The notes: a model not told the origin generated them from the letters alone. A stretch of 62,412 nucleotides of DNA, filler included, from Stramenopiles sp. TOSAG23-6 (GCA_900128565.1; 18 parts of 18 records of this genome joined end to end with filler, not necessarily neighbours in it); one strand, 5' to 3'. Numbered from the whole stretch's first letter, positions 1 to 46,494 are shown. Made by a program: numbers and translations.

Positions 1-78
1 TTTTTTATTTTTTTTTTCCGTACGAAATTTTGTACCTAACGATTTTTTTTTTTTTTGAATTATTTTTCCAAAATACAT

Positions 79-522
79 GCAACAGTGTTGGCAATGCTAA
101 CAGCTACAATTCCTCAAAAATTTCAATTTGCAACATTTGACACGTATATTGATCATTTTGAAGTGACGAGTGGTTTGTGTATCCTTACAACAATTCATGT
201 TATAGTTATTAATGGAAATCCATGTAAATTAAAATGGATTTTAGAATGGAATGATGTTTTACATATGAAACTTCATAACAAAATAGATAAAGATAATAAA
301 AGATTAATTCGAAATTCACATATTGAAATATCTGTGATACAAAAAAAGAGAAAAATATCTTTAGATACAATTTTTGGTATATCGAACCGAAATACACGAA
401 ATAATATGGAATATTTACTTGAATATGATTCGGACTTGACACCAACGTATGGTACTGAAATTTTGGGACGTCTTGAAACTGCAAAATCACTTGCATTTTT
501 ACATGCAAATGCAAAAGTATAA
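79..522 (+). CDS. 3'-terminal exon of a large protein, possibly a VPS13-like C-terminal PH-type domain
   Basis: Follows an intron 3' end (TACCTAAC...TTTTTCCAAAATACAT|GCA) and is open to TAA at 522. The LCILTT...LKWILEWNDV pattern loosely resembles the VPS13 C-terminus; the family call is weak. Confidence 0.45.
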   Translation, partial: ATVLAMLTATIPQKFQFATFDTYIDHFEVTSGLCILTTIHVIVINGNPCKLKWILEWNDVLHMKLHNKIDKDNKRLIRNSHIEISVIQKKRKISLDTIFGISNRNTRNNMEYLLEYDSDLTPTYGTEILGRLETAKSLAFLHANAKV

Positions 523-599
523 ATAAAAAAGTCTATTTTTTTTTAATATAAAAAATTATTAAACCCTAACTGAATGCTACATACATACATATATCTTAT

Positions 600-1226
600 C
601 TATGGTTCCCTCCCAGGCCTGGCCGTGGAGTCAACAAACATATTTAACTGTTTAAGAACTTCTTTTTGAATAGAATATGGTAAAAACAATATTGCTTTTC
701 TATTTGATCCTACAGCTATCTTTGCAACTTCAATATCTTGTCTAATATTGGGAGATGCAAATTTAAGGTTCAATCCATCTTGTTGAACAGCTATTTTCAC
801 AATATTCTTATTGCTACGCATTTTCGTAGATAAAAATTGTAGTAAGAAACCATATTTATGCAATGCATCAATAATCACTTGATGGCTGGGCTCAATTAAT
901 GCAAATTGTAATGCCAAAGCATTTTGTAACACTGCAGAGTTGACCACACCCACGTCTTGTTTTAAGTTGTCACACGCAAACTTTAATGCTTTTCCATTTT
1001 GATTCACAGCGGCCAAGACAATTTCTCTATCACATTGTAATTCAGGGAGGAGCCACAGTATTATACCCGTTGTACGTACGGCAAGTAAGAGTAGTTCTCG
1101 GTCATTTTGTAATTCTTTGGATGCTTTTAAAATATTATATCCAGATTCTTGAACGGCAATTGTAACGATATCTTTATACTTACCAAGACCATTTAAATTG
1201 AGTGAAAGTTTTGAATTATATGACAT
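600..1226 (-). CDS. DUF4116 repeat protein
   Basis: Repeated D[RK]EIVLAAVxQNGxALxFA units, e.g. CDREIVLAAVNQNGKALKFA. Confidence 0.8.
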   Translation of the reverse strand: MSYNSKLSLNLNGLGKYKDIVTIAVQESGYNILKASKELQNDRELLLLAVRTTGIILWLLPELQCDREIVLAAVNQNGKALKFACDNLKQDVGVVNSAVLQNALALQFALIEPSHQVIIDALHKYGFLLQFLSTKMRSNKNIVKIAVQQDGLNLKFASPNIRQDIEVAKIAVGSNRKAILFLPYSIQKEVLKQLNMFVDSTARPGREP

Positions 1227-1385
1227 ATATTGTTATACAATATTTTTTTTTATACAATTTGAAATTCATTAATTTTTGTGACATTCTAAAAAAAAATGTT
1301 GAAACAAAGTAGCAAACATTATAAAAATCGTACAAAAAAACGTAAACATGTAGATACAAATACATTATTAAAAACATTACAAAAA

Positions 1386-3369
1386 TCATACAAAAAAAAC
1401 GTAATACATTATGAAAACATACCTATCACCAGATGTCTTTCTTTCCATCATAAGTTTGATATAATCTTCTTTTCGCCATTTCAAAGGTTTCTCCTTACAT
1501 GCCTTATACTTTGGTTTAAACTTTCCAAAGGGTTCTGATGTAATACAAGGAGACTTTTGTAATTTTATTTTTCGATGTTTTTGACAAACATCAAGGAATC
1601 TATCAACATAATTATCACATACTACTCCAGTAGATGATTGTGGAACATCTTTACATGACTGAACCCTAACTTTATCACGACAGTCAACTAAAGTTACTTC
1701 CTGGGGTCTTTTCGCCAAAGGTGGTGGAGGTTTTGGACCAAAAAACTCATCTGTAAAAAGTGGATTTTTAAATTCTTCAATTTTCTTTTTTGCAAGATCA
1801 ACAATTATTTTGTCAGTTTGTAAATTCTTTGCTGCATATTGAATTGCAATTCCAGATTGAATGACTGCAGCTTTTACCATTTCCCGGTCAGCTTGTATAG
1901 ATTCATTGGCAACACTCAAAATTAGTCCATTTGATTGAATAGCGCGGAGAAGAATATTTCTTTCTGGTGAAATTAAGGCAAATTCTATGNNNNNNNNNNN
2001 NNNNNNNNNNNNNNNNNNNNNNNNNNATTCTATGGCATATCCATCTTGAAGGATAGCTGCATTTACAATCTCTACATCTTTTTTCAAATTATCTGAAGCA
2101 TATTCTAAAGCTCTCCCACTGCATTCTACAGCATCTAGTACAAGACTTTTTATATTTCTTAAACGAATTGACGCAAATTGCAACGCAAAACCATTTTGCT
2201 GTACTGCAGCACGTACAATATTAATATCATCTTGGAGAGGACGACAAGCATGAGCTAATTGGTTTCCATCATCAGACACAGCTGCATATAAAACGTCTCT
2301 GTCACAACGCAATCGCAACGGATACTTATTCAGTGATAAAGTTGTATCATAAGACACATCATCCGTACTTTTTCGTTTTTTCATGGATTCTAAAAAATCA
2401 ACCTTTTCTTTACTCTCTTCCCAGATACGGTGTCTGGTGATACATCTTTGATGCAAATGATGACCAATACGCCCCTCTGGACTTTTGCATCGACCGGTTA
2501 ATGTGGCAGGCACACAGATGTCCAACTGCTTGTCAATATACGACGAACATCCTGTGAATTTCAATACACTTGGAATAAGAGACCGTATCGTGAAAAAATA
2601 TTTCAAAAAAAAATCGTTAGGTACAAAATTACGTACTAGTACAAGAATTTAGTTTCAAAAACGAATGATGAAAACGTACACAGTCATCAATTAATATTTT
2701 ACTTGTAGGACTGCAATTCACAAGAGTAATGCCCGATTTTTGAATACCATCGTTTACCCATTTCATTCCAGATTTTGTCCCAGCAAGAAGTCTAGACCCC
2801 CAAAGTTGGCTCAAATAACTCATTCCGGTGAATGGTCCAAATACAACACGTGTCCGCATTTCAGTATTTGGGTGTATCATTCTAGGAGTAGCGCGACGTA
2901 AATTTGCAATCCTGGAGTTGTAATAATCTGGAGTAAATACAATACTGTCACGTTCAGAACTATATATGCTTTCTGGTTCAGGTTCCATTGGAGTGACTAC
3001 GCTTGGAATGAACAACTCTGGTTCAGGTTCCATTCTTGACAGGTACGTATTATGAGGAATGTTACGCAAGTGCATTTCATCTGTTTCTTTCAAATCGCTA
3101 GTATCTCTATGACTCACATCAGGGTGTCGTGTTTGATCATAAAGGGCAAGAGTTCTTACATTTTCTAGAGGAGTGTTGCTCTTAGAAAAGGACAATGCAT
3201 CCAATTCACCTTCAGGTTCCAGTGCAACTTGAGGATCAATAAGGGACTGTTGTACATGACTTTCGGGTGAATATTTTGGATGGACCACCTTTGTACATTC
3301 ACATAAAAATGAACTTTCTAGGAAAACAATTACACAAAGTGTAAGAAACATTCTTAATGATGATTTCAT
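1386..3369 (-). CDS. Signal-peptide-bearing DUF4116 repeat protein (2 exons: 3369-2680, 2582-1386)
   Basis: Hydrophobic N-terminus (MKSSLRMFLTLCVIVFLES). The two listed ORFs join in phase 0 across intron 2679-2583 (GTACGT...GATACGG). DUF4116 repeats (DINIVRAAVQQNGFALQFAS) lie in exon 2, which contains an internal N gap. Confidence 0.7.
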
Positions 3370-3384
3370 TTTGGTTACAAATCT

Positions 3385-7040: not shown

Positions 7041-8720
7041 ATACCTTGTCTTGGTCAATTAGTTGTTAAAGCTTGTCAACGATACAACCGTAGAAATGGT
7101 AGCTTTCCAGCAACAATTGTCCTTTATCGTCCATCGAATGGTGCAGGACAACAAGAGAGAACGTTGCTCGACGACTTGAAAGTTATTAACATGGCATTTA
7201 AGGATATGGGTGTTTGTTTTATTTCAAATTTTTTCAAATTTTTTTTCAAATTTTTTTTCAAATTTTTTTTCAAATTTTTTNNNNNNNNNNNNNNNNNNNN
7301 NNNNNNNNNNNNNNNNNNNNNNNNNNNNNNNNNNNNNNNNNNNNNNNNAAATTTTTTCAAATTTTTTTTCAAATTTTTTTTCAAATTTTTTTTCAAATTT
7401 TTTTCAAATTTTTTTTTTCGTACATTTTTTCGTAGCTAACTTTTATATATATTTATACATAAATATAATCTACTGTACATGTCCCTGAAGTTCAATTCGA
7501 TGAACATGGTGGAATTAATGCACAATTGAGTACGTGTTAATAATTTAAATGTATTCAAATTTTTTAATAATTTTTTTATTAATTTTTTTTCCATATTTTG
7601 AACTCAAAAAAAAAAAAAAAAATTCAAATATTTTCTTATAAATACATGCAGCGCTCCTCGTCTTGCTCTTATTGAATATTGTACTAATCCAAAGGAACGT
7701 TTTGGAGAACAACGATTGAAGTCGGATGATAAGGTGTATAATGTCCCTGCTGGAACAGTCATTTGTGATCCTGAATTTCAACGTAAAGGTCATGGTTCAT
7801 CTTTTTTTACAGTTTCACATGTACGTTTTTTTTTTTGAGTTCAAAATATGGAAAAAAAATNNNNNNNNNNNNNNNNNNNNNNNNNNNNNNNNNNNNNNNN
7901 NNNNNNNNNNNNNNNNNNNNNNNNNNNNNNNNNNNNNNNNNNNNNNNNNNNNNTTTTTTCATACGAAATTTCGTACCTAACCAAATACATTTTTTTTTTA
8001 AATATTTTTATACAACAAAGGATTCAACATTTGCAGCAAAACCTGTCGCTTTTGATTTAGTGACAGAAAATGTAAAACACGATGACGTCACTTTTTCATT
8101 ATTTTCAAAATTGAAAGATACGCCAAAAGTGGATGAGGATGGTGAACCTGTCGGAATGCATTTCTTTCCATTTGGATCTGGATCATCAAATGATGAATGT
8201 ATGTTTTTTTTTTTTTTTTTTGACGAATAAATTGTCTTATCTTTACTTCAATTGGTCTGGCGCCGTTCGCGTCCCAGCACCATGTACGATAACCCTAACC
8301 CTAATATATACCCCTACAACCCTAACCCTAACGCTATTCCTACTACTATATATATATATATATATATATTTTTTTTATAGTAAATTTTGTACCTAAACTA
8401 AAAAGATTTTTTTTTTTGAAATATTTTTTAAATTTTATGTAAATTGGCACAAAAAGCAGCAGAAGCAATTACAGCTGTGTATGGAAGTACAAACACCGAC
8501 GAAATTCGAATTGCAGAAGCCATTGATCGCGCTGAACATGTTTGTTCCCAATATGAATTTCTGATTTTTTTTTTTTAACTTTTTTAAATTTTTTCTTAAT
8601 TTTTTAATTTTTTTTTTCGAAATATTTTTACAATTAAATTTTTTTATACTAAACGAAAAAAATCGAAAAAAAAAAATGAAATATTTTCACAAAAGATAGA
8701 CACATATGTTTTACTTGTAA
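7041..8720 (+). CDS. Argonaute, Piwi-clade, C-terminal PIWI domain (5'-partial, multi-exon)
   Basis: Exons 7041-7211, 7481-7529, 7648-7820, 8021-8198, about 8220-8283, 8439-8539 and 8700-8720 give PxTIVLYR, NVPAGTVI, FFTVSH, LTNKLSYLYFNWSGAVRVPAPCKLA and terminal MFYL-stop, all PIWI hallmarks. One junction (8199-8220) looks collapsed in the assembly. Confidence 0.85.
7224..7410 (+). repeat. Tandem ~12-nt repeat (CAAATTTTTTTT) inside a Piwi intron
   Basis: Repeated caaattttttt(t) units on both sides of an N gap. Confidence 0.8.
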
Positions 8721-9161: not shown

Positions 9162-9571
9162 TCAACAACAGCCACAGCAACGCTTCGCAATTTTTGTTTC
9201 AGTAGAGCTGTCATGCCAAGTATTGTGAAAAAATATTTCAAAAAAAAAAAACTTAAAATCGTTAGGTACAAAATTATCTACGAAAAAAAAAAAAAAAAAA
9301 TCATTCAAAAAAAAACGTACAGAAAATTCCACAACAACCCATTTGTTCTGATACACTCAGCTGAATACTATTAATATTGATACTTCGGTCACAAACATGA
9401 ATTGTTGTAAAATACGTGAGAAAGTCGCTATAACGCATCCAAAAGCGACCATCATTGGAACCACCACGTTTATATCCTAACTGTCTCCTTATCTTAGGAT
9501 GCTTCTGTTTTAGTGAGGAAACAAAAATTCAAAAAAAAATCGTTAGGTACAAAATTAACTATGAAAAATTT

Positions 9572-9602
<31 letters not shown>

Positions 9603-9818
9603 GTTTAGGTACAAAATTAACTATGAAAAAAAAAACTGAAATTTCAAACATACCTCCCAGCGTTCAACATCCTTATCACTCCAATCTCCTTTCCATTCAA
9701 AAGATCCCCAAGGATTTCTTAGTTGTACCAGTTTTGTTAATCCATCAAGATCATATAAATCATATTCTGTACAAAAATATATATTTTTTTTTTTCGTGTA
9801 AAAAATATTTTTTGTTAG

Positions 9819-9859
<41 letters not shown>

Positions 9860-10253
9860 CTTTGTCCGAAGGCTATCTTTGAAAATAAAATAAAAAACTT
9901 TGAAAAGAGTACAACATACACGACATTGAAGTAAAGAATAGGCATGCCCAGCAACAAGACCAACTTTTTCATCACGTTCCTCTTTCCCTGATGATATTCC
10001 ACATGTACTGTAAAAATGTATTTAAAAAAAAAAAAAAAAAAATTTAAAAAAAAAAAAAATTTTCAAAAAAAAAAAAAAATGTAAAATACATGAAAAAAAC
10101 GTACATCCAATGACAGCGCGTTTATTTAGATAATTCTGTAATGTTTGAAATAACAAATCATCAGGCACTTTATCTTTGCATGTCCGAAACAAAATTTTAA
10201 ATTTCGATTTATGTGGAAGAGTTTCTGTTGAATTTGTTTGACCGCCTGTAAAC
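9162..10253 (-). CDS. Calpain-family cysteine protease, catalytic domain C-terminal half (5'-partial, multi-exon)
   Basis: Spliced exons give FTGG, VIGCGI, GLVAGHAYSLL (catalytic His), LRNPWG (catalytic Asn), WKGDWSD and DGRFWM, ending CCGCC-stop. Introns at 10104-10003, 9919-about 9768, 9653-9505 and 9320-9218. Confidence 0.9.
10003..10104 (-). other. Non-canonical intron GT-AT (calpain)
   Basis: GGA T|GTACGT...ACAGTACAT|GT GGA restores VIGCGI; the AG 5 nt upstream is out of frame. Confidence 0.82.
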
Positions 10254-10501
10254 ATGTATTTTGGAAAAATATTTCAAAAAAAATATATATATCGTTAGGT
10301 ACAAAATTTCGTACGAAAAAAAAATCATACAAAAAAAAAATAAAACATNNNNNNNNNNNNNNNNNNNNNNNNNNNNNNNNNNNNNNNNNNNNTTAATTAA
10401 TTAANNNNNNNNNNNNNNNNNNNNNNNNNNNNNNNNNNNNNNNNNNNNTACGAAATTTTGTACCTAATGATTTTTTTTTCAAATATTTTTCCAAAATACA
10501 T

Positions 10502-11664
10502 ACACAAAAATCAGATCACGAAAAAAGTCATGAATGTTCTCCTGTCTTTCTCCAATTTCTTGATTGTACGTGGCAATTGATGCGTCAATACCCAAATTGC
10601 TTTCAGTTTAACTCCGACTTACTTGTATTTCTAGGTCATCAGTTGTATACTTGCTCTTTTGGTACATTTTTAGGGAATTGTGAGCGACAAGTGTGTTTTA
10701 TTTTTTTTCAATTTCGATTTTTTTTCGTACGAGATTTTGTACCTAACAAATTTTACAAAAAAAATATTTTTTCACAATACAACGTCGTGATATGAAAATT
10801 GAATCGAAAACACCATGCTTGTGGAAGTATGTTACTGGGCCTCAAAAAAGAGATTCATTTTTAAGTCCATACTATCAATGTAAAAGTAAAATTTCTGACA
10901 ACTGTGATAATTCAAATGATGTAAAGAGTTTTAGTGGCGTTTCTAGTTCACCTACTGGATCTACTGTATTGCTACCATATATTTCAACTGTAGTTCGAAA
11001 TTATTCCGTCTGGAGTGATTACTTTTATCGTTGGTGTTCTGTTCCTTCCTATTCATCTCAGATTCCGCCAAGGTCTCGACCTGAAGGTACGTTGACTGAG
11101 TTTGTTAGTGGAGAAAAGAAAATGGAGGTGGGAGTGAAGTGTGCATATGCTTCTGCAGCGGCGGTTATCGTTGGTAGCTCAGTTAATGATTTAAGTGAGC
11201 GTGAAAGATTTGTTGAATCTGCATTGACCATCGCACAAGACAAAATTAAAGAACTTGAAGCTGAATTAATAAGAATAAAATCTCTTGACAAGGTTGTGAA
11301 GGATGCAGAAACAGATAAAATACCAAGTGAAAATTCTTTATTAAACGACACTGGAAATATATCTGTGAATCTCTCTGTAGGGGATTTAGATTTTGAGTCA
11401 GATTTTGACAAGGATCCCAGACCAGATCTCGGACCAAATCTTGCGGATTTAGGCATTTCGGAAAATATTGATGATCATTGTAATAATTCTCAATCAAATT
11501 TCAACGACATGATTAATGAAGTTGACGCTCTTTTGGTACAAGATAATGCTCCTGAAAATCCAGAAACCAAAAATATTTTGGATACAGAAAAAAATCAAAA
11601 AAATCAAAATTCTAATGAAGGTATGGAAAATTCTGAAAATGTATTGACGGAAGTATATGAATGA
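10502..11664 (+). CDS. Myotubularin-related phosphatase, C-terminal part (5'-partial; exons 10502-10690, 10783-11664)
   Basis: SPVFLQFLDCTWQLMRQYPNCFQFN and FGTFLGNCERQR are myotubularin motifs, followed by WSDYFYRW and a coiled coil. Confidence 0.88.
10691..10782 (+). other. Non-canonical intron GT-AA (myotubularin)
   Basis: CAA|GTGTGT...TACCTAAC...AATATTTTTTCACAATACAA|CGT restores NCERQ|R in frame. Confidence 0.8.
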
Positions 11665-20090: not shown

Positions 20091-20267
20091 AGCTAAGAAT
20101 TACTACTACATAGATGAAAAAAAAAAAATTATATAATATCTCAAAAAACAATAACATAGTTAGGGTTAGGGGTACGAAGAAATTGTCCACACTGAAAAAT
20201 TCAATTATTTATTTTAATACAAAATGAGAGTCTTCAAACATACTATAAAAACAAGAAAATTGGCTGT

Positions 20268-20945: not shown

Positions 20946-23391
20946 TGGTACAAACTCAAATGATCTTCATTCAGGTGGGAGCAGCATCTGTGGAGGTGGT
21001 AGAAATAGTATAGGACAAATTATTAGTCCTTCACAAGCACAAGCGTATTTTGTTTTGCCCCATTCAGAAAGAACTGCATGTATGTTTTATTTTTTTTTTA
21101 TTTTTAAATTTTAAATTTGAAATTGAATTTTTTTTTTTTTTTTTTTTTTGAAACTAAAAAAAAAAATTTTGAAATATTTTTCCAAAATACATCAGAAAGT
21201 ATGAGTCGATCGTTTGCAGTGTCTATCCCTCATAGTTCAATAACAAGCACAACACGACGAAGTTTATATGGGTCATCATTTACTAATGTACATTTTGATC
21301 AAGAATTTATTATTATTATTTTTACAAAAAAAAAAATTCATATGAAATTTCGTACCTAACAAAAAAATTGAAAAATTGAAAAATATTTTTTTTCACAAAA
21401 CATGAATCCTCATTAAATTTTCCATCAATAATGTCTCAATCATTCGGTCATGAATTTTCTCTATCTCGGTATAATTCAACAATGTCACAAAATATTTCTA
21501 ATTCATTTAACTCTAAATCAAATATTGAATCAAGATTTGAATCAAGATTTAATTCTGTTAATTCTAAATCAAATATTGAATCAAGATTTGAATCAAGATT
21601 TGAATCAAGATTTAATTCTGCTGAATGCTCTAATCGATCAAGATCAAGTCATCACAGTGCTGCAGCTATCAAAAATGAAGAAAAAGTACAAAGAAGTAAA
21701 AAAAAAAAATTACTACCATTGTACGTTGTACAAAGAAAAATAATTTCAAACAATTTTTTTTTTTTTTTTTTACATTTTTTTTTTCGTACGAAATGTTATA
21801 CCTAAGAAATTTCAGTTTTTTTTTTCATAATATTTTCACAAAATTACATACGATCAGGAGCTCAAGAACGAATTGATTGGATTAATGCAGTTGAAGCAGC
21901 ATCAAATAGAAGAGAAACAGAAAAAAAATTATCATTTACAAAATGTGATACATTTGAAAACGAAAACCCTAACTTTACAAAATATATTGACAAAGAAGAA
22001 GAACAAAATTCTTCTACCAAGTATGATACCATTGATTCATTGAACCCTAACCCTAACCCTAACCCTAGTAAAAACAATCAAAACAATCAAAACAATCCGA
22101 CACATGACATAACAGAACAACTTTTACAATTAGCTAAATTAGATCCTTTAGAAATTTTGACACGAAATGAAAAAAAATTAATTTGGTCCAATCGAATTTC
22201 GTATAGAGGTTTGATTTGGACAACACCATCTTTATTTCATAAATTGATACGTTCAATTGATTGGATGAATGAAAATATGTACGTTTATTTTTTCTTCATT
22301 ATTGTAAAAAAATTTTTTTGTAAAAAAATTTTTTTTTTTTGTAATTTTTTTTTTTTTTTAAATTCGTAGTACATTTTCATACCTAACAAAATTGTACATT
22401 TTATTTTGGAATATTGTCTCACAAAACATTGTTAATGAAATGATGAAAGAGGTACCACCTATAGAGTACTGGTTACCCGGTTCTGGCTCTGTATCTGCAT
22501 TAGTACAATCTATTGATAAGCAATATGAGACATCAAATACAACACATTCAAACCCTAACCCTAGATACGATATAAACCCTAACCCTAGATACGATATTTT
22601 ACCAAAATATTTTCCTGTCGCTCCAATAGAAATAATAACACTTTTAGGACCTACTGTTACCCACAAAAGATTTCGTGCATATGCATTACAATGTGTCCAT
22701 CGGGTATGTTTTTTTTTATTTGGGTATGTTTTTTTTTATTTACCCTAACCCTAATAATTTAATTTTTTTTTTTTGAATTATGAAAATTTTATTAATAATT
22801 TTTTTTTATTGAAATAAATTTTTCACAATACATTTATTATGCACAACTGAAGATTTCGTGCTTTATTTACCTCAATTAGTCCAATGCTTAAAAAGTGAAA
22901 TTCCATTTGACATTAAAATTGAAACAACTAACCCTAACCCTAATGAGACGAAAAAACATGATAAAACTTTACATACAAATATTTGTAGTAAAAGTAAAAA
23001 AGTGTTTGTTCAAGATATTAAACACAAAGATGTACATACATGCAATATTGAATGTGATACAGGATTTGATTCATCGACTTCGTATGATACTGTAGTTGAA
23101 GAAGATACTACGTATTTTTTATCATCGTAACAAAAAACAACTTTTTTTTTTTTTTTTTTTTTTTTTTTGTAAATTTTGTACCTAACAAAAAAAATAAAAA
23201 CAAATTTTTGAAATATTTTTTAACAATGCATTAGACCGTTACGTTGGAGACTTTGGTCACCATTGGCTAATTATCTTTGGAAGTATGCAATAGCTAATGA
23301 AACATCCGTTGGGCTTCCTTTATATTGGGCTCTTCAAGTAGAAGAACATGTTTGTGATCATTGAAAAATTTGTACCTAACAAAAACAATTG

Positions 23392-23459
<68 letters not shown>

Positions 23460-24152
23460 ATATATTTGTACCTAACAAAACAATGTTATACTTTTGAATT
23501 ATTATCCAAAGTATATGGTGCTCAACATCCTCTTTTACATTCATTACTTACACGAATGCGGGAAACAATTTTACTAATTCAAACCCAAGAAAAAGTTTGT
23601 ACGTTTTGTGTATTTTTTTTTCAATTTTTTTTTCATACGAAATTTTGTACCTAACGATTTTTTACAAAAAAAAAAAAAAACATATTTTTTTACAATATAT
23701 GGGGCGAATCAGGTTTTTTTGCTACAATTAATCGGAAAATACAATTTGGACAAACCTGTTCTGATGTTTTGTCTTCATGTATTGATGTACATTTAGCTAT
23801 TGCTGTGGGTAAGGTCAAAAAATTAGGTAATAGTGGTCGGAAATGGCGAAATAGATATGTAGTCCTGGTACGTTTTTCAAAAAATGTGATTTTTTTTTTT
23901 TTTTAAATTTTTTTTCGTACCAAAATTTGTACCTAACAAAAAAAATTTTTAAAAAATATATTTTTTCACAATACATTTGAAAGGTCGACTTCAATATTAT
24001 ATATCAGAAACAGCAACAATGCTACAAAGAGACATGCCTTTTGATACTTTTGTCCATTATGAAAATGCTTTACAATTCTTAAATGTAGTACAAATTAATG
24101 GATCAAATTTTTATCCATTCAAAATTATTTTTAAAACAAATGATGATGACAT
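20946..24152 (+). CDS. Phosphoinositide 3-/4-kinase family protein with PH-like domains (internal fragment, 10 exons)
   Basis: Spliced frame gives ERIDWINAVE (PH C-helix), the PIK helical domain (EKKLIWSNR, RSIDW, FRAYALQCV, LYLPQLVQCLKSE, LYWALQVE), a PH motif GKVKKLG..KWRNRYVVL and the kinase N-lobe IIFKTNDDD. Confidence 0.85.
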
Positions 24153-24805: not shown

Positions 24806-27734
24806 TTTTTAAAAAAAATTTTTTTCCAAAAAAAAAAAAAAAAAAAAAAAAAAAAACAATTTTCAATGAAACAAATATTTTGACTTTTTTTTGTTTTTTT
24901 TGTTTTTTCAAATATTTTTTCACAATGTATCTAGTGATTCAATTAGGTGGTTATATTAAAAATGGTATCGATGGAATCACAGTCACTTCTAATGATGATT
25001 TTGATGATAATTTTCGTTTTCATGAAAATTCATCCTATTTAAATGATAAGAATAATGATGATTTTACTTTTGATTTTAATCATGATTTTAAACATAATGA
25101 TTATTTTAATGATTATTTTCGATTTCTTGAAAATAATAATGATTTTAATAATGATGATGATTTTAATAATGATGAATTTCGATTTGCAATAGAAAAAAAG
25201 GAAAAAATGCTTGTTCGAATAAATGGTGTTATACTATCAGCAGGAAGTTCAATTGAAAGACAAGTACAGAAAAGCGTTATACAACGATTAACAAAAAAAA
25301 AANAAGAAATTCAACAAGAAATCAAAGAACAATCAGAAGAGGGTAATGGTAATGGTGATGATGATGGTAATGATGATGGTAATGGTAATGATGATGGTCA
25401 TGGTGATGATGAAGAAGATAATGAAGATAATGAAGCTAATGATGATAATGATGATAATGATGATAATGATGAAGAAGAAGATGATAAAAAATTTCAATAT
25501 GCAATAATGACACATAATTTCCCACCAATTGGTAAAACGTATGAAAATCAATTAAAAGTGAACAAAAATGATATAATTTTCATTCTTGAAGAATATAAAA
25601 GTGGAGCTAGTGAAAGATGGAGTCTGGCAATGACAATTGATAAAGAGAAAACAGGTTATGTAGCACAATCATTTTACAACATTATAACAAAAGAAGAAGC
25701 AGACATAAAATTAGATGAGGCTAAACAAGAAAAAGCAGCAATGGTTATTCAGTCTGCTTATCGTGATCGTCAAGCAAAAGCAAAACAAAATGAAGCAGCT
25801 ATGGTTATTCAGTCTGCTTATCGTGATCGTCAAGCAAAACGAAATGAAGCAATCGCAGCTGCAGAACAAGCAGCTAATGATTCCGACACCGCTGGTGGTG
25901 GTACTGGTGGTGGTACTACAGATGGTGGTGATTCCGGTAGTACAGATGGTGCAGATGCTGGTGGTAGTACACTACCACAAAAAACAAACCAACCACAGGC
26001 ACCTGGTGATTCCGGTGATTCCGGTAGTACAGATGATACAGATGGTGATGGTGATGATGATGAAGAAGAAGATAATGATGATGAAGAAGAAGATGAAGAA
26101 GAAGAAGATGATGAAGAAGAAGATGATGATGAAGAAGAAGAAGAAGAAGAAGGAGAAGAAGGAGGAGGAGAAACTACTCCTGTAGATGATGATGTTGATG
26201 TTGCTGATTCTCCAGCAGAAGAAGGCATTGGTGATGCTGATGGTGGTGAAGAAGGTGGTGGTGAAGAAGGCAAAGAATCTGTTGGCAATGCAGTTAGAAC
26301 AGATCAAAAAAAAAAAGATGGTGTTGTAAATACAAAACGTATTCTTATTCTTGGAATGAGTTCTGGTGAGTATACACGGACACACCGACCTGATACGCCA
26401 TTACGTGAGAGTTTCAATATTCCAGCGGATCAACATATTGAAATTTATTTCATTGATGATGTNTGTTTTTTTTTTTTTTTTNAAAAAAATCGAATTTNTT
26501 TTTTGTTTTTGGTTTCATACGAAATTTTGTACCTAACAAATTTTTTTCAATTTTTTTTCAATTTTAATTTTTTTTTTTTNGTTTTTTTTTNGTAAAAAAA
26601 TTTTGTATCTAACAAATTTTTTTTTTAGTAAATTTTTAAATATTTTTTCAAAATACATGGAACAGCTTCTGGTGGAGACGGTCCAGGTAAAGTGAAAGAC
26701 AAAGCATGGTACAACGCTCGCAAGTCTGGATCTTCAGAGCCCGACACAATGGACAACAAGACAACACTTTTTGATTACATTGGCAAATTTGACAATTTAC
26801 CAAAAGATTTTACAAACAATTTCTTTGATTTCATCTTAAATGATTGGTCGACAAGCAAATTTTTTCCTCCAGGATTTGGCCTTGTCCTTCAAAACTTACT
26901 ACGACAAGGAGGCCAAATACACATGCAAGATATACTGCCAAAAGTGCCATATGGTTCAGGTCCCGGGGCGAGGTGTATGGATTCTAACCAAGAGAAGTTG
27001 CAACCTCCTAATCAATATGTCATGTTATCTCAAACGATAGGTGGTGGACCTATTTACTGCATAGTAACAAATGATACGACAGTCTGGGATTTGAAGGTTG
27101 GAGTTATAACATTAAAAAACCCTGATCAATCAGCCACCAGCTACGATTCGATTATTGATATGGCAAACAATAGCAACTTACCAAATAATACTGTGGTGAA
27201 GGATATGAAGAAGAAGGTGGGATTCATGTTTTTCCCAGGCACTCCTTTTACCGTCGGTGGAATGTCCTTTGAGGATTTTACAAAAGGTGGTGGTATGAAT
27301 CAACGAATACCTTTTGAAACATATCCATTGGCTTCTTCTCGTTTAAAAAAAGCCGGTCATGAAGCGAAAAATTATGTTCAATTTGCTGCTACTGTAGATG
27401 GTGCTGCTACTGGTGGTGCTGCTGTTGATGGTGATGCTGCTGGTAAGAATCCAGCAAAACCAAATGCAGCTGCAGAACAAGCAGCTAATGATTCCGACAC
27501 TGCTGGTGGTGGTGGTGGTGGTGATGCCGGTGATGCCGGTGGTGGTGCTGGGCCTGCTGGTGATGGGTCTGCTGGTGCTTCTCCAGCAGTAGAAGAAGAA
27601 GAAGAAGAAGATGCTGGTGATGGTGATGGTGATGCTCCTCCAGCAGTAGAAGAAGAAGAAGAAGAAGAAGATGCTGGTGATGGTGATGGTGATGGTGATG
27701 CTCCTCCAGCAGTAGAAGAAGAAGAAGAAGAAGA
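24543..27734 (+). CDS. SH3 + IQ-motif protein with long acidic low-complexity regions (partial; introns 24729-24930, 26461-26658)
   Basis: SH3 (AIMTHNF..ENQLKVNKNDIIFIL..WSLA..KTGYVAQSF), two IQ motifs (AAMVIQSAYR) and D/E/G-rich tracts. Both introns are AT|GT...AT and phase-consistent. Confidence 0.75.
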
Positions 27735-30229: not shown

Positions 30230-31141
30230 ATGGGTGCTGGAAAAAGTCGATTTCCTGTAGTATCATATAATGAAATAGATGGTACTTTTAGAAATGAAAT
30301 TGAATCTAAGAAGGCTGTCAACCAAAAGAATCAAAAGAACTACAGTAATATAACTTCTAGGTCATTAGCACTTGGTTTCACCTCTGTGAAAGACTTCACT
30401 ACAAGTAATCCTTCACCAAAAGACATATTATCTCAGAAACTTTTCACGACATTGGCAAGTTTATCACCAGGTGATACAATTAGTAAAACTACTTTACATC
30501 AGTGTTTTCCACTTCCAGGTTTACTTGGTCAACGTCTATTTGTCGCTTTTGACGTAGAACATACTGGTGTTGTCAATAAACAAGAATTTGCTGCAGCCCT
30601 AGCTACTTTAACAAGTGGTTCAATTGATGACAAATGCAATTTAATTTTTAGAATGCATGACTTAAATAACAATGGTTACGTAGATGAAACTGAACTTTTG
30701 CTCATGCTTTCAAGTTTTCCGAGTTCTGCACGAAACGTTATTTTGAAGGAAGTCAAATTGGCCCTTCAACTTGGCCATGTCTTCAAACAAAAGCATCTTG
30801 CACGAATTCCGATATTTTATAGACGTTGTGGTTGGTTATTAAAGAAACGGTATAATTTTATTCATAATATATTAGTGACTGGACATTCAAATCGATGGCG
30901 TACGTTTTTTTTTTTTTTTTTCATTTTTTTTTCATACGAAATTTTGTACCTAACAAAAACAAATTGAAAAATTTGAAAAATTTGAAAAAATATTTTTTTT
31001 GACAGTATAGGACGACAATGGTTTGACATTTTTGGTCAATATTTGCGATGGACTGTACAACCACCATGGGGTGAAGCAGGTTCGTGCAATGATGTACAAA
31101 TAAGTAATAAGACAAGTTGGATAGATTTAACATGGTATGAT
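30230..31141 (+). CDS. N-myristoylated calcineurin-B/recoverin-like EF-hand + PH-domain protein (3'-partial; intron 30900-31010)
   Basis: MGAGKS N-terminus, EF-hands (FDVEHTGVVNKQEF; DLNNNGYVDETEL) and a PH start GWLLKK...RWRRQWF across a canonical GT-AG intron. Confidence 0.8.
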
Positions 31142-34894: not shown

Positions 34895-37800
34895 ACATTC
34901 CCTTAATAGCTCACACGCATCTGCAGATAAACAAGAAGGAGGTATCGGAGGCGCGACTTTTTCCGATGCAATATGAAACATTGCAGTGATTGGATTTTCA
35001 AATTTCTTTTCATGCCATGGATGTATTTTGGAAAAATATTTCAAATTATTTTTTGTTAGGTACAAACTTTTTATAAAAAAAACATTCATACAAAAAAAAA
35101 ATAAAAAAACATACATTCTTTCCCGTTGCCATTTCAATTACAGTGCATGTATTGTGAAAAAAAAAATGTATGAAAAAAAAACGTTAGGTATGAAATATAT
35201 TACAAAAACAAAAATTGCAAAAAAAAATTGGAAAGAAAAAAACCTACATGTAATGTAGAAAAAATATTTTTTTTTNTAAAATTCGTTAGGTACAAAATTT
35301 CGTACGAAAAGCAAATTTAAAATTGAAAAAAAAAGAAACCTACATCCAACACTCCAAATATCAGCTTTAGGCCAATCAACATGCACGTCAATTTCATGAT
35401 TAAGATGTTTAAATACTTTCATTCCAGCAGTTGGAGATCTTGGACCTGGATTTATTTGCTGTTTTAAAGAGGCCGAACCCATCCGAATGACCTCTGGAGC
35501 CATCCATAATGGTGTCCCTAAAGGAAATTCAATTTGACCTGGTAAACCAAAACTTTCATTTTTACCAATTTCGAATTTATTTTTGAAACCAAAATTTTCA
35601 TTTTGATTTTTTGATGTATTTTTTACATGACTGATAGAATGATCATTTTTGTAATGTATTGAAGAATTTTTACGGAAACTTGAATATTTCCTTCGTTTTG
35701 GTGTCAATTCTTTTAAAGATTTACTTGCCTGTAGTATACGAAGAATATTAATTTTTTTTTGTTAGGTATGAAATTTTTACACGAAAAAAATAAAAAAAAA
35801 TAAATTTAAATTTAAATTTAAATTTAAAAAAAAAAATGGAATACAAAACATACACCAAAATCAGCAAGCTTTATGATACCTCTATTACTAATTAATATAT
35901 TAGCACCTTTTACATCTCGATGTGCTATACCATGATTATGTAAATATTGCAAACCTTTAATGATTTGTCTTGTGTAGCATTTTAATGCCTTTTCTGGCAA
36001 ACCTGTAGGAAATTTTTTCAGTAAATCATGAACAGAGCCTCCTGGTAAATATTCCATAAAAATACGCAACGCCCATCCACAGGTAAGAGAACCATGAGTC
36101 ATTGGGCTTGGCGTCCGAGTCCAATCTAAACCCTTTCGTGGAATTGATGTNTTGNGAANATATATATATANANTTTNTNTTGGTAAATAAAACTCGTTTG
36201 GTACATGATGTACTACAAAAATAAACAATACGTTGAAAAAATATATATATAGGAGAATACACCTACATGGACTTCTAATACGTTGTAATTGTGACGGCAT
36301 TACTCCTCCTGGTAAAGGTTGTCGCTCTGTAGCAAAATAGTGCACAATATTCTCATTGGATAAAGCACGCATTAATGAAATTTCATCTTGAAGAGTTACC
36401 AATTCGCCAGGTCTTGCTAAAGCGGCATCTAGGGATGTGACTTCTATCGGAGGTAACTCAACTTCTTTCATAGCCATAACTTGTCCATTATCGAGATTTG
36501 TTACAACAAAGACTCTACCATATTGACCTTGACCAATACATTTGCCGCGTCTCCAACGGAAAGGTGCTGGTTGAACCCATGACTTTTCATGTGGACTCAA
36601 ATGCCGTTTCGGTGGTGTGATGACGCGAAAATTATTATCTTCTTTCAGAATTTCTGTACTCATTAAACCTTCTGTTGAATCAATATCTTCACTATCATCA
36701 GACACGACAACTTTACGAAAAAAATTTGAAATTAATTTACGTTTCATTGTCTTTCTTCTCCATCGAGGTGTTGTCCATAAAACTGATAATTCTTTAAGAT
36801 CATCTTGAGTAGATAAATCTATTTGTTCAACAACTGCACTTTGTACTAAAAATTTATCTGGTTTAGCATTTATGTCTTCTCTGTCTAGTAATTGTCTAAC
36901 TTCTTGTTTTCGTATAATAAATTGAACATCTGTCCATTTACCTGGTTTTATAAGACCCATGTATTTTGGAAAAATATTTTGAAAAAAAAAAATTGAAAAA
37001 TTTGTTAGGTACAAAATTTCGTACGAAAAAAAAATTTGAATTTCAAATTTAAAAAAAAAAAAACATACATTGCTGGTCTAACTAAATATCGATCTGGTTG
37101 TGTTGTTTTTATCTTAAATGCCACGGATTCTAAGGGTAGTGAATTTTCTAATAAAAGCTGACCAAGTGCACTTTGTGCTGTGTCTAAAGCAAAATCTATT
37201 TCATCTCTTGGTGTGCATCGTAATCTGTACTTTGGGAAAATATTTTAAAAAAAAAAGTGTTTGTTTAAGCAAAATGTTTTTTTTTTTTAATATATATATA
37301 TAGCAAAACAATCAAAAATAAATGATGAAATAAAAACATACGCTTTTCTATGACGCATATCGATGACAGCACTATTTGTTTTCTTTGAACGAATTCCATG
37401 GCGATTATTTTCACGTAATTTTTTATTACTTTGTGTACATATTTTGTGAAAAAATATTTTTTTTTTTTTTTNTAAAATTTGTTATTTTTGTTAGGTACGA
37501 AATTTCGTATGAAAAAAAAATTGAAAAAAATTGGAAAAAATTGATAAAAAATTGAAAAAAAAAACATACCACTTTGTTTTTGAATAGTCATTTGTAAAGA
37601 AGCAACAGAACTGTTACCAGGAAATGAAGGTAATGACTTACCAGGTGAAAAAATATTTGTGTTTTTCGTGTATGGAGATCCAATAGGCGTACCATAAGGA
37701 GTTAAAGGTTGAATTTTAAATTTATTTGGCATTGGACAATTTTGTGAAAAATATTTCATTTTTTTTAGGGTTAGTGGTTTAGTGGGTTAGGGTTAGGATT

Positions 37801-38151
37801 TGGAAAAAAAAAATGAAATTCATTAGGGTTAGGGTTAACACATACGATCCTCTTGGCGTACTATAAGGACTAATACTATCATTCATATTTTCAATTTGAA
37901 TGTGACGAATTTTCTTACGACTTTTCATATCTAATAAAGACACATTTTCTAGTACTTTTTTGTTAGGGTTAGGGCTAGGGTTAGGGTCTGTTGTATTCGG
38001 TGTAGGATTTGTTGTATTTTTTATTCTTGAAAGAAGTTTTTCAATTCCTTTACGAAACTTTTTTTTTGTTTTTGTATTTTTAAGATTCATTACATTATCA
38101 ACATTATCAACATTATCAACATTATCAACATTATCAACATTTTTATCATCA
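34895..38151 (-). CDS. MSP-domain MEKK-like kinase, redundant contig copy 2
   Basis: Same sequence as copy 1 at offset 3472, apart from resolved Ns. Confidence 0.85.
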
Positions 38152-41768: not shown

Positions 41769-41823
<55 letters not shown>

Positions 41824-41838
41824 TTTTGCAATACCTAC

Positions 41839-44800: not shown

Positions 44801-45095
44801 CGTACTATAAGGACTAATACTATCATTCATATTTTCAATTTGAATGTGACGAATTTTCTTACGACTTTTCATATCTAATAAAGACACATTTTCTAGTACT
44901 TTTTTGTTAGGGTTAGGGCTAGGGTTAGGGTCTGTTGTATTCGGTGTAGGATTTGTTGTATTTTTTATTCTTGAAAGAAGTTTTTCAATTCCTTTACGAA
45001 ACTTTTTTTTTGTTTTTGTATTTTTAAGATTCATTACATTATCAACATTATCAACATTATCAACATTATCAACATTATCAACATTTTTATCATCA
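41839..45095 (-). CDS. MSP-domain MEKK-like kinase, redundant contig copy 4
   Basis: Same sequence as copy 1 at offset 10416. Confidence 0.85.
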
Positions 45096-45195
45096 NNNNN
45101 NNNNNNNNNNNNNNNNNNNNNNNNNNNNNNNNNNNNNNNTTAATTAATTAANNNNNNNNNNNNNNNNNNNNNNNNNNNNNNNNNNNNNNNNNNNN

Positions 45196-46494
45196 ATGGT
45201 CGTTAATGTCTTTCCAAATATTGTNAAAAAATATTTTTTTTTTTTGGTTAAAAAAAACAAAAAAAACGTTAGGTACAACATTTGGTACGAAAAAATGTAG
45301 GTAAAACATTCAATTTTGAAAATGTACAAGTCCCATCTCATCGGCTAAGATGGCACCTTGCCCCATATATTCTTTTACACCGCTCAGACATTCCCAAAGA
45401 AATTGAACATATTGTAAAAAAATATTTCAAAAATTAAAATTTTGTTAGGTACAAAATTTTATACGAAAAAAAAAATATTTCAAAAAAAAAATTAAAATTT
45501 TCTTAGGTACAAAATTTCATACGAAAAAAACAATTCGAAATTGAAAAGAAAACATACACACCTTCTATTTGATGTTGTTGTAAAATGTTTGATAGCCGAT
45601 ATTCAAGAATTGCACATTTTCCATTTTTCTCAAATAATTTACCTTTTGAGGGCGTGTAATTTGCTTTTGTACAATGAATGCTTCCTAGTCCTGGATTTCT
45701 ATTNATATTGTTTTTTCTTTTGTGTGGTGTTGTGACACTGGTGTCTGTAGTTGCGAGAGTGTGAGAAAGTACAAAAAAATCGTTAGGTACAAAGTTTCGT
45801 ACGAAAAATAAAAACATAAATTGAAAAAAAAAATAAATTGCGAAATTCATGATGAAAGTGTACTTTTGTTAGGAAATGGATTTTGAAACTTGCGATTAAA
45901 ATTAGATGTGTTTTTAATTTTCCCCACATTATTGTTATGAGAAGTATTCACATAATTTCCAATAAAAAACTTGCCACTGTTGAACTCTTCATCGGGTACT
46001 TGTCGAACGACTTCGGTTTCCCAATTTCCAACACCTAGAGTTTCACCTTCTTTCATTAGTTGAAATTTGAAACGAGTGACGGCCACACTTTTCCCATTCA
46101 TATTCCGCAGTTCAGCACGATTCTTTGAATTCAAAATAAGAACACCGTCCATGTATGTCTTATGCTTCTTTTTAGAATATTTACAGTACAATACCTCATA
46201 GTATTTCTTGACAACTGGAGCACTAGTAATCTTGTTTATTGTACCATTTGATTTAGTCATACTCGGCGGAACAAATTTGCTTCGCTTTCTACTCACACGT
46301 TTTAATATTGTCTTGGNTTCAGAAANAATTGTAGTGTGAGTGGTTTTCGTGTTGGTACTTCTATTTTCTTTCGAGCAAGCTGTAGAAGATACATTTTTAG
46401 NTGCTTGTACAACATTTGGATTTGAAANTCTTGGTGCCTGAAATGTACTTCGTGATCTACCAAAGCGGCGTCTTTTTAGACCAGATGGATTCAT
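45196..46494 (-). CDS. RAD54B: RAD54B-like SNF2 DNA translocase, N-terminal part (exons 46494-45864, 45744-45558, 45406-45328, 45215-45196)
   Basis: N-terminal KKKHKTYMDGVLIL motif; splicing restores LQQHQIEGVQFLWEC and SNF2 motif I GAILADEMGLGKTL. Exon phases 1/2/0 are mutually consistent. Confidence 0.8.
45216..45327 (-). other. Non-canonical intron GT-TT inside the SNF2 Walker A motif
   Basis: CTT|GTACAT...TACCTAAC...ACAATATTT|GGA AAG restores DEMGL|GKT. Confidence 0.88.
45407..45557 (-). other. Non-canonical intron GT-GT (equivalently GT-AT if slid 2 nt)
   Basis: GGT GT|GTATGT...ACAATATGT|T CAA restores HQIEGVQFLW. Confidence 0.8.

What the first reader, a model, noticed from the sequence alone, without database searches (positions are those of the whole stretch)
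1..46494. Genome-wide family of GT-donor introns that mostly do not end in AG
Seen: nearly every multi-exon gene carries about 90-270-nt introns with one architecture: GT(A/T/G)YGT or GTAGGT donor, T/A-rich body, GTACGAAATTTYGTACCTAAC, then AATATTTTT and 10-12 nt to the acceptor. Hand reconstruction of protein frames placed 35 non-redundant introns: AT x21, AG x7, TT x3, and AA, GG, GT, TG x1 each. Known: U2-type introns almost invariably end AG (read by U2AF1 and the catalytic core). Large-scale exceptions are reported in few lineages, e.g. Amoebophrya, Fritillaria and euglenid nonconventional introns, with different consensus. Inference: this organism has a spliceosome with a conventional donor and branch site but a 3' splice site that does not depend on AG, with AT preferred. 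I cannot tell from sequence alone whether this has been described for this taxon.
Basis: partly seen in the sequence, partly recalled or inferred. Interest (0 to 1): 0.95.

Follow-up and report, generated by a model that had tools for sequence, protein, structure and literature searches.

The report
Repeated introns that end in AT
An AT-rich marine protist carries a high-copy family of look-alike introns that start with the normal GT but mostly end in AT instead of the near-universal AG, which would mean its splicing machinery picks the 3' cut site in an unusual way.

Summary
The window is a chain of about 3.4-kb draft contigs, some duplicated. The 21-nt motif occurs 36 times against 0 expected.

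My own reconstruction gave 32 complete introns. All 32 start GT. The 3' ends are AT 20, AG 6, TT 2, and AA, GG, TG, GT 1 each.

Evidence on junctions:
- Frames alone are weak: only 3 of 26 non-AG introns lack any in-frame AG alternative.
- One metatranscriptome contig with 0 mismatches removes two neighbouring introns. No placement of either junction ends in AG, and an AG 5 nt upstream of one site is skipped.
- Kinase, calpain, MSP and Rad54-like homology anchors five more non-AG junctions.

Best reading (about 0.65): these are transposon-like "introner" spliceosomal introns. They have a GTAYGT donor and a TACCTAAC branch site. The 3' cut falls 10-13 nt after ATATTTTT whatever the final base, and the last two bases often repeat the upstream exon's end (15 of 32, p=0.0002).

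Spliceosome type, branch point and mobility are inferred. My six literature searches found no description of this class.

The parts
2583..2679 (-). Intron c1, GTACGT...ATACGG (ends GG), in a DUF4116 gene
   Evidence: phase 0, 235 and 398 open codons on the two sides. Pfam DUF4116. Frame evidence only.
7212..7480 (+). Intron P2, GTTTGT...GTACAT (AT). It contains an N gap.
   Evidence: Frame evidence only.
7530..7647 (+). Intron P3, GTACGT...ATACAT (AT)
   Evidence: Frame evidence only; the AG at +4 is out of frame with the consensus donor.
7821..8020 (+). Intron P4, GTACGT...ACAAAG (AG), with the family 3' module. It contains an N gap.
   Evidence: The AG sits 11 nt after ATATTTTT, the same place as AT in other members.
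8284..8438 (+). Intron P5b, GTACGA...TTTTAT (AT). It holds two CCCTAA blocks.
   Evidence: Frame evidence only.
10003..10104 (-). Calpain intron C1, GTACGT...GTACAT (AT)
   Evidence: The AT model scores 0.6-5.5 bits above three alternatives against 33 calpain homologues; discrimination is weak (12-13 of 33 score higher) for the two closest.
9762..9919 (-). Calpain intron C2, GTATGT...AGAATAT (AT). It skips an ACAG that ends 5 nt upstream.
   Evidence: The AT model beats both alternatives by 2.1-2.4 bits; 3 of 33 homologues prefer the alternative.
9505..9653 (-). Calpain intron C3, GTATGT...AAAACAG (AG), with no ATATTTTT module
   Evidence: The Peptidase_C2 profile runs 232-258 in one exon and 266-296 in the next.
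9218..9320 (-). Calpain intron C4, GTACGT...ATACTT (TT)
   Evidence: Frame evidence only.
10691..10782 (+). Intron c4, GTGTGT...ATACAA (AA). The upstream exon also ends ACAA.
   Evidence: left slide of 4, with 81 and 293 open codons.
21080..21192 (+). Intron 7-1, GTATGT...ATACAT (AT)
   Evidence: With the consensus donor, the AG at +3 gives an in-frame stop by my reading; one search lists no in-frame option at +3.
21288..21403 (+). Intron 7-2, GTACAT...AAACAT (AT)
   Evidence: no AG between donor+40 and +60 nt beyond the 3' end. DNA contig X1 record 2 confirms the letters.
21721..21849 (+). Intron 7-3, GTACGT...TTACAT (AT)
   Evidence: X1 record 5 covers the 3' end with 0 other letters.
22279..22429 (+). 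Intron 7-4, GTACGT...AAACAT (AT)
   Evidence: The PI3Ka profile ends at the upstream exon. RNA-library contig X3 record 16 retains this intron.
22704..22833 (+). Intron 7-5, GTATGT...ATACAT (AT)
   Evidence: X1 record 7 covers the 3' end.
23112..23231 (+). Intron 7-6, GTATTT...ATGCAT (AT). An in-frame AG 3 nt downstream cannot be excluded.
23350..23516 (+). Intron 7-7, GTTTGT...GTATAT (AT). RNA-supported; it skips an AG that ends 5 nt upstream.
   Evidence: X5 record 30..
23599..23700 (+). Intron 7-8, GTACGT...ATATAT (AT). RNA-supported.
   Evidence: X5 record 30..
23868..23976 (+). Intron 7-9, GTACGT...ATACAT (AT)
   Evidence: Frame evidence only.
26461..26658 (+). Intron c8, GTNTGT...ATACAT (AT), with an internally duplicated branch module
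   Evidence: 583 and 375 open codons.
30900..31010 (+). Intron c9, GTACGT...GTATAG (AG), with the family module. It skips an ACAG that ends 5 nt upstream.
37737..37845 (-). Kinase-gene intron K1, ending TG (or GT with another donor). Identical copies lie at -3472, +3472 and +6944.
   Evidence: no AG between donor+40 and +60 nt beyond the 3' end.
37439..37569 (-). Intron K2, GTATGT...AAATAT (AT)
   Evidence: The frame is fixed through K3.
37225..37341 (-). Intron K3, GTATGT...GTACAG (AG), with the family module
   Evidence: The MSP domain starts in the next exon.
36959..37068 (-). Intron K4, GTATGT...ATACAT (AT)
   Evidence: The MSP profile reads 3-50 before and 53-101 after; residue 51 and the split codon fill 51-52. 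No in-frame AG alternative.
36147..36266 (-). Intron K5, GTAGGT...NACAT (AT). An in-frame AG at +21 is not excluded.
35729..35853 (-). Intron K6, GTATGT...ACTACAG (AG), between DFG and ASK
35147..35343 (-). Intron K7 (AT): two abutting family copies, 35248-35343 and 35147-35247
   Evidence: Homologue P0003 residues 258-267 match 35147-35118 exactly. The AG alternative scores -12.0 bits, with 6 of 115 homologues higher.
35021..35114 (-). Intron K8, GTATGT...ATACAT (AT)
   Evidence: P0001 residues 232-240 and 243-282 flank it without a gap. The AG alternative scores -3.7 bits, with 22 of 115 higher.
45745..45863 (-). Intron S1, GTACAC...CTACAG (AG). A copy lies at +3466.
45407..45557 (-). Intron S2, GTATGT...ATATGT (GT; slides to GT...AT), with an internal duplication
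45216..45327 (-). Intron S3, GTACAT...ATATTT (TT), in a Rad54-like gene just before the exon that starts GKT
   Evidence: The exon aligns end to end with Rad54 chain 1z3i residues 65-90 (E=0.028). The next exon starts GKT.

Best explanation
The introns are a high-copy, transposon-like ("introner") family of spliceosomal introns in an unidentified AT-rich marine protist. Each copy brings its own signals:
- a yeast-like donor, GTAYGT followed by T's, at its 5' tip;
- a T/A-rich spacer;
- a short palindrome (GTACGAAATTTTGTAC) running into a CTAAC branch site;
- a 3' module, AAATATTTTT then YCA(C/A)AATAY.

The second cut is made at a fixed place, 10-13 nt after ATATTTTT. There the consensus is Y-A-(T>G): A at -2 is kept, but the last base need not be G.

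In about half the copies the last two bases repeat the last two bases of the upstream exon. This fits a short target-site duplication, so that removing the element plus one repeat restores the reading frame.

Shown: the architecture, the copy regularity, two RNA junctions without AG, and several homology-fixed junctions. Inferred: removal by the major spliceosome, the branch point, mobility and the duplication.
For: - Motif: 36 matches against 0 expected.
- Ends: 32 of 32 introns start GT; 26 of 32 do not end AG.
- RNA: X5 record 30 removes two introns precisely, with no AG possible at either end and an upstream AG skipped.
- DNA check: Logan contigs of DNA run X1 show 0 other letters over the 3' ends of introns 7-2 to 7-6, so AT is not an assembler's error there.
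- Kinase: junctions fit homologues without gaps. AG alternatives score -12.0 and -3.7 bits over 115 homologues.
- Calpain: the AT model scores highest on average. A public GT-AG-constrained gene model of the same locus (P0187) scores 19.7 bits lower in 33 of 33 comparisons.
- MSP: the profile is contiguous across K4.
- Rad54-like: the exon ends exactly before GKT.
- Frame-blind motif end is in frame in 15 of 17 introns (P=4.5e-6).
- Exon-end and intron-end dinucleotides are identical in 15 of 32, against 8.2 by permutation (p=0.0002). Among non-AT introns it is 4 of 12 against 0.69 (p=0.002).
- Copy number: 3607 contigs of X1 lie on this 3.4-kb stretch, with depth piled up in the two bins that hold intron elements. 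8 of 28 unique contig ends lie within 120 nt of a branch motif.
- Copies abut or are internally duplicated.
Against: - RNA support is one 223-nt contig from one metatranscriptome. Other RNA-library contigs (X3 record 16, X4 record 24) keep introns 7-4 and the start of 7-5.
- An intron-free allele or strain would look the same as a spliced RNA.
- Frames alone allow an AG alternative in 23 of 26 non-AG introns.
- The calpain C1 test barely discriminates.
- The exon/intron dinucleotide repeat is absent in 17 of 32 introns, and AT|GT could instead be a splice-site context preference.
- The terminal inverted repeat is only about 4 bases (GTAT...ATAC).
- No transposase, empty site or snRNA was seen.
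- Only one related copy turned up in JGI metagenome contigs.
Confidence: 0.65

Rival explanations
1. Conventional GT-AG splicing: the real acceptors are nearby AGs, sometimes with a neighbouring donor, and the AT ends come from placing junctions at the end of a conserved motif.
For: 23 of 26 non-AG introns have some in-frame AG option if donors within 8 nt and AGs up to +60 are allowed. Introns 7-6 and K5 have in-frame AGs at +3 and +21. A public gene model (P0187) was built this way.
Against: The RNA contig excludes AG for two introns. AG alternatives lose 12.0, 3.7 and 2.1-2.4 bits against homologues, and P0187 loses 19.7 bits in 33 of 33 comparisons. Three introns have no in-frame AG option at all. 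A chance motif end would be in frame 1/3 of the time, not 15 of 17.
Confidence: 0.07
2. A transformed minor (U12-type) spliceosome removes them. The 3' module near the end (TTTTCCAAAAT or TTTTCACAAT) would be the branch site. The cut would be measured from it, with a free terminal dinucleotide, as in U12-type introns.
For: The 3' end lies at a fixed distance after the module (10-13 nt; 11 nt in 16 of 22), and the terminal dinucleotide varies. A's at -9, -7 and -4 are kept in 28-30 of 32 introns. [quoted passage not shown] Physarum also shows that snRNA and branch motif can co-evolve (bioRxiv 10.1101/2020.10.12.336362, passages read).
Against: No intron has the RTATCCTT donor (0 of 32; positions +5 and +6 are GT). 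The best branch-like motif, TACCTAAC, lies 33-57 nt from the 3' end. No snRNA is available to test.
Confidence: 0.13
3. The elements are not spliced from RNA. They are mobile DNA that is missing in some alleles or strains, or is cut out of the DNA as ciliate eliminated sequences are, so the "spliced" contig is an empty site.
For: Short direct repeats flank many copies. The RNA libraries also hold unspliced contigs, and the tool warns that DNA can be present in them.
Against: Two adjacent elements are missing together from one contig that otherwise has 0 mismatches. All 32 introns start GT, with an extended donor and a CTAAC motif, which are splicing signals. DNA run X1 retains the elements. 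Genes would be broken by in-frame stops or 20-aa insertions if the elements stayed in.
Confidence: 0.07
4. Euglenid or hemistasiid-type nonconventional introns, removed through a stable structure that pairs the two intron ends.
For: The two ends have a 4-base complement (GTAT/ATAC).
Against: Borders are conserved: GT in 32 of 32. Whole-intron folds are no more stable than shuffles (z -0.04 to -1.2).
Confidence: 0.03

Closest known systems
Introner elements (transposon-derived introns, e.g. Micromonas, Aureococcus)
   Same: Many near-identical introns in unrelated genes, short flanking direct repeats, and splice signals carried by the element. Details for these two algae are recalled, apart from one sentence in PMC7789003 saying Aureococcus introners always have direct and terminal inverted repeats and canonical splice motifs.
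   Different: Those families use canonical sites; here 26 of 32 introns lack AG. The 2025 survey treated 3' sites other than AG and AC as unfamiliar. It dropped families with mainly noncanonical sites when RNA evidence did not confirm correct splicing (PMC12130899, methods passage). A family like this in an unannotated draft could therefore be missed.
Amoebophrya non-canonical introns and introners
   Same: More than 60% of introns are non-canonical. Some are repeated elements with 3-5 nt direct repeats over the borders, in a marine protist (PMC7789003, passages).
   Different: Amoebophrya shows no preferred terminal dinucleotides, and its introners have 8-20 nt inverted repeats forming hairpins. 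Here GT is invariant, one 3' consensus dominates, and no stable hairpin is found.
Fritillaria borealis non-canonical introns
   Same: A lineage where most introns escape GT/AG. There, duplicated and diverged U2AF subunits recognise non-canonical 3' ends (PMC13326754, abstract only). This gives a concrete model for AG-independent 3' recognition.
   Different: Fritillaria is an animal, and its main pattern is AG-A(N), so the donor is lost too (as cited in PMC7789003). Here the donor is conventional.
U12-type introns, including the Physarum expansion
   Same: The 3' site is set by distance and terminal dinucleotides are tolerant. GT-AT exists as a minor class.
   Different: The defining donor and the near-terminal branch motif are not met here.
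Nonconventional introns of euglenids and hemistasiid diplonemids
   Same: Large-scale departure from GT-AG in marine protists (PMC12621601, section 5 and passages; PMC6221363, passages).
   Different: Those lack conserved borders and pair their ends. Here the borders are conserved and the folds are unremarkable.
Yeast-type U2 introns (GTATGT ... TACTAAC ... YAG)
   Same: Strong donor and branch consensus, and a long branch-to-3' distance (features recalled, not tested).
   Different: The branch motif has one extra C, and the 3' end is YAT rather than YAG.

Membership tests
U2-type GT-AG spliceosomal intron | 5' GT with an extended donor consensus | tested here: met
   GT in 32 of 32. +3 is A in 28, +5 is G in 28, +6 is T in 30.
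U2-type GT-AG spliceosomal intron | Branch motif (CTAAC-like) upstream of the 3' end | tested here: inconclusive
   TAYCTAA is found in 24 of 32 introns, 33-57 nt from the end. Use as a branch point was not tested.
U2-type GT-AG spliceosomal intron | 3' terminal AG | tested here: not met
   AG in 6 of 32. RNA excludes AG for 2 introns.
U12-type intron | Donor RTATCCTT | tested here: not met
   0 of 32; positions +5 and +6 are G and T.
U12-type intron | Branch motif TTCCTTRAC close to the 3' end | tested here: not met
   No such motif was found. The best CTAAC lies 33-57 nt away. The near-terminal module resembles the U12 motif only in part, and that resemblance is my own reading.
U12-type intron | Minor snRNAs present | not testable with these tools
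   No genome is held. Rfam found nothing in the window.
Introner (transposon-derived intron family) | Many near-identical copies in unrelated genes | tested here: met
   copies lie in genes for a kinase, calpain, a PI3Ka-domain protein, a Rad54-like protein, a DUF4116 protein and others. High contig pile-up on the two bins that hold intron elements.
Introner (transposon-derived intron family) | Target-site duplication | tested here: inconclusive
   A 2-nt repeat in 15 of 32 introns against 8.2 expected, p=0.0002. Absent in the rest.
Introner (transposon-derived intron family) | Terminal inverted repeats or a transposase relative | tested here: inconclusive
   Only GTAT/ATAC. No autonomous element was seen.
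Introner (transposon-derived intron family) | Presence/absence differences between strains | not tested
   No second genome was available.
Euglenid-type nonconventional intron | No conserved borders; a stable structure joining the ends | tested here: not met

The most novel reading that the evidence does not exclude
In this lineage the 3' cut is not read from the terminal dinucleotide at all. It is measured from a module that the mobile intron carries. The spliceosome therefore removes [quoted passage not shown], and any insertion into coding sequence is repaired at the RNA level. That would be a transposon-specified rule for choosing the 3' splice site. It should go with altered second-step or U2AF-type factors.
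Probability: 0.3. Interest if true: 0.92.

Novelty: new variant of a known kind. Interest (0 to 1): 0.8.

Why it matters
The terminal AG is one of the most constant signals in eukaryotic gene expression. A free-living protist whose commonest introns keep a textbook donor and branch site, but end in AT, would be a natural experiment. It could show which parts of 3' splice-site recognition are dispensable: the first-last base contact, U2AF1, Slu7 or Prp18.

It would also tie intron gain by mobile elements to a change in the splicing code.

There is a practical side. Gene callers that demand GT-AG mis-annotate this organism. The public model P0187 reads intron sequence as protein. Published gene and intron counts for such single-cell-type assemblies may therefore be wrong.

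Tried and rejected
I then laid one contig, which used the only call. 138 further joints were not shown, so more RNA junctions may exist that I could not see.
- No whole genome is held, so snRNAs and splicing factors could not be inspected. Rfam found 0 matches in the window.
- Metagenome scans: the exact 22-mer gave 0 matches. The degenerate motif gave 9 loci, of which only L007 is a real family member. That was too few copies to test the duplication idea.
- A near-length protein search with exon 23703-23867, looking for spliced RNA fragments, found no candidate.
- Single-exon PDB searches gave an irrelevant hit for calpain exon 1 and none for exon 2.
- I first read the gene on the plus strand of contig 3 as Piwi-like from recalled motifs. 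Pfam found nothing in three of its exons, so I drop that name.
- The palindrome before the branch site folds weakly (-4.4 kcal/mol, z -1.8). Whole introns fold no better than shuffles. I reject a structure-driven mechanism.
- Taxon: the closest named kinase relative is Telonema subtile (61% over 18% of the query). An unnamed EukProt protein is 68% identical to the ankyrin/EF-hand protein. Neither names the organism.
- I considered marine diplonemid single-cell genomes. Their introns are described as lacking conserved borders, and the original paper is not held.
- Supplementary files of the papers were not seen.
Full report
**What the window is.** The 62,412 bases are 18 draft contigs of about 3.4 kb, sorted by length and joined by N44-TTAATTAATTAA-N44 linkers. 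Contigs 10-13 are one sequence four times and contigs 14-15 one sequence twice. GC content is about 24-41%. Pfam finds eukaryotic domains: DUF4116, BTB with pentapeptide repeats, Sel1 with U-box, ankyrin with EF-hand and WW, protein kinase, MSP, calpain, PI3Ka and SNAPC1. No whole genome is held, and Rfam finds nothing in the window. DNA runs of a coded "organism A" hold contig 7, and three seawater metatranscriptomes hold small shares of it. I could not name the organism.

**The observation.** The 21-nt motif matches 36 times with up to 3 mismatches, against 0 in shuffles. Working contig by contig with reading frames, I delimited 32 complete, non-redundant introns.
- All 32 start GT, mostly GTATGT or GTACGT, followed by T's.
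- Lengths are 92-269 nt.
- 24 of 32 carry TAYCTAA, 33-57 nt from the 3' end.
- In 22 introns ATATTTTT lies 10-13 nt before the end (11 nt in 16).
- The 3' consensus is AAATATTTTT-YCA(C/A)AATAYAT.
- Terminal dinucleotides are AT 20, AG 6, TT 2, and AA, GG, TG, GT 1 each.

Where a family member ends in AG (P4, K3, c9), the AG stands where AT stands in the others. Three other AG introns (C3, K6, S1) have the branch motif but an ordinary pyrimidine-rich tail.

**How strong is the placement?** Frames alone are not enough. If donors within 8 nt and AGs up to 60 nt downstream are allowed, 23 of 26 non-AG introns have some in-frame AG option. Independent evidence is therefore needed, and some exists.

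1. RNA.
   - Contig X5 record 30 (223 nt, depth 9.9, 0 other letters) lies on 23242-23347, 23515-23597 and 23700-23733.
   - With a GT start the removed pieces are 23350-23516 and 23599-23700, and both end AT.
   - The alignments can slide by a few bases. By my reading of the sequence, no placement gives AG.
   - The first intron has an AG ending 5 nt before the used site, and the second has one 12 nt after it. Neither is used.
2. Kinase.
   - Homologue P0003 residues 258-267 match 35147-35118 exactly. P0001 runs 232-240 and then 243-282 across the next junction without a gap.
   - Replacing the AT junctions by the best AG alternatives costs 12.0 bits (6 of 115 homologues score higher). For the second junction it costs 3.7 bits (22 of 115 higher).
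3. MSP domain. The profile reads 3-50 before intron K4 and 53-101 after it. Residue 51 and the split codon fill positions 51-52. K4 has no in-frame AG alternative.
4. Calpain.
   - The AT model scores highest against 33 homologues.
   - For C2 the alternatives lose 2.1-2.4 bits (3 of 33 higher).
   - For C1 the two closest alternatives lose only 0.6-1.6 bits (12-13 of 33 higher), which is weak.
   - A public gene model of this very locus, P0187, was evidently built with GT-AG introns. It loses 19.7 bits in 33 of 33 comparisons because it translates intron sequence.
5. Rad54-like gene. The exon before intron S3 aligns end to end with chain 1z3i residues 65-90 (E=0.028), and the next exon begins GKT. 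This intron ends TT. That GKT follows at this point in the helicase motif is recalled knowledge.
6. Frame-blind rule. The best match to the terminal motif after the branch site lands in frame in 15 of 17 introns, against 1/3 by chance (P=4.5e-6). "In frame" here is measured against my curated junctions.
7. Assembly check. The AT ends are not an assembler's slip. Logan contigs of DNA run X1 cover the 3' ends of introns 7-2 to 7-6 with 0 other letters. That run may be the window's own source.

**Results against my reading.** RNA-library contigs X3 record 16 and X4 record 24 keep intron 7-4 and the start of 7-5. They could be pre-mRNA or DNA in the library. The RNA proof is a single short contig. 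Introns 7-6 and K5 have in-frame AGs at +3 and +21.

**What else the sequences say.**
- Positions -2 (A in 27 of 32) and -3 (C or T in 31 of 32) are kept. Only the last base changes: T 23, G 8.
- The upstream exon tends to end AT (A 16, T 21 of 32).
- The last two intron bases equal the last two exon bases in 15 of 32 introns, against 8.2 by permutation (p=0.0002). Among the 12 non-AT introns it is 4 against 0.69 (p=0.002). For example, the intron ending AA follows an exon ending ACAA.
- Copies can abut exactly: K7 is two elements head to tail. Some carry internal duplications of the branch module.
- 3607 contigs of DNA run X1 and 465 and 444 contigs of two RNA runs pile onto the 3.4-kb stretch, with depth concentrated in the two bins that hold intron elements. 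8 of 28 unique contig ends fall in an element.
- Whole introns are not unusually structured, and the palindrome before the branch site is weak.
- One metagenome contig (L007) holds a clear family member ending ACAT after an exon ending ACAT.

**Mechanism.** My best reading (about 0.65) is a mobile, introner-like intron. It supplies a strong donor, a branch site and a 3' module. The spliceosome cuts at a set distance after that module, at Y-A-(T>G). A short target-site copy often forms the last bases, so excision restores the frame.

The rivals are:
- a transformed U12-type system (0.13), because a fixed distance and a free terminal dinucleotide are its hallmarks, although its defining donor and branch motif are not met;
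- conventional AG use (0.07);
- DNA-level absence or elimination (0.07);
- structure-driven nonconventional splicing (0.03).

**Known or new.** Six full-text searches found no paper with this motif and none describing a genome with mostly GT-AT introns. The library lacks most subscription journals, and I saw no supplements.

The nearest systems are introners, Amoebophrya, Fritillaria, Physarum U12-type introns, and euglenid or hemistasiid introns. Each differs in a defining respect.

I rate this a new variant of a known kind. If the RNA evidence generalises, it would surprise a splicing specialist.

Noticed in passing
window 8293-8331, 13573-13584, 20160-20171, 22045-22062, 22743-22754, 22932-22943, 37823-37834, 37963-37974, 48308-48325; L007 about 2270-2330: Short telomere-like blocks, (CCCTAA)2-3 or their complement, lie scattered inside open reading frames (read as N-P-N-P) and inside introns. 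There are 11 unique sites in the window, and they also occur in the related metagenome contig L007.
   Followed up: partly
window 35147-35343 (with three further identical copies): Two family introns abut exactly: the first ends ACAT and the next starts GTAGGT, with no exon between them. This would fit a new copy inserting at the AT|G junction that each copy recreates.
   Followed up: partly
window 26461-26658, 45407-45557, 9505-9653: Three introns carry an internal tandem duplication of the T-run, palindrome and branch module (about 58-76 nt), giving two branch motifs in one intron.
   Followed up: no
protein P0187 (locus window 9300-10260, minus strand): A public gene model for this calpain locus uses forced GT-AG introns. 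It translates about 20 residues of intron, and it runs into the last intron up to a stop. Annotations of this organism are likely to be systematically wrong.
   Followed up: yes
window 8199-8232 (+): A candidate 34-nt mini-intron (GTATGT...AATAAAT) lies before a 17-codon exon, with no branch motif. It could be real or an assembly collapse of a T-run.
   Followed up: no
whole window: The record is a chain of length-sorted contigs joined by a six-frame stop linker. One contig is present four times and another twice. The copies differ only in N positions.
   Followed up: yes
window 55593-62412 (-): Two contigs are each filled end to end by one open frame of 1119 codons. They have higher GC, no introns and almost no Pfam match (one weak ephrin-receptor-like hit). 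It was not checked whether they belong to the same organism.
   Followed up: no
window 52349-52470 (-): A family element lies between the end of an oxidoreductase-like reading frame (a name from recalled motifs, with no tool support) and a membrane-protein-like frame. I could not place its donor. It may be a 5' UTR or first intron.
   Followed up: no
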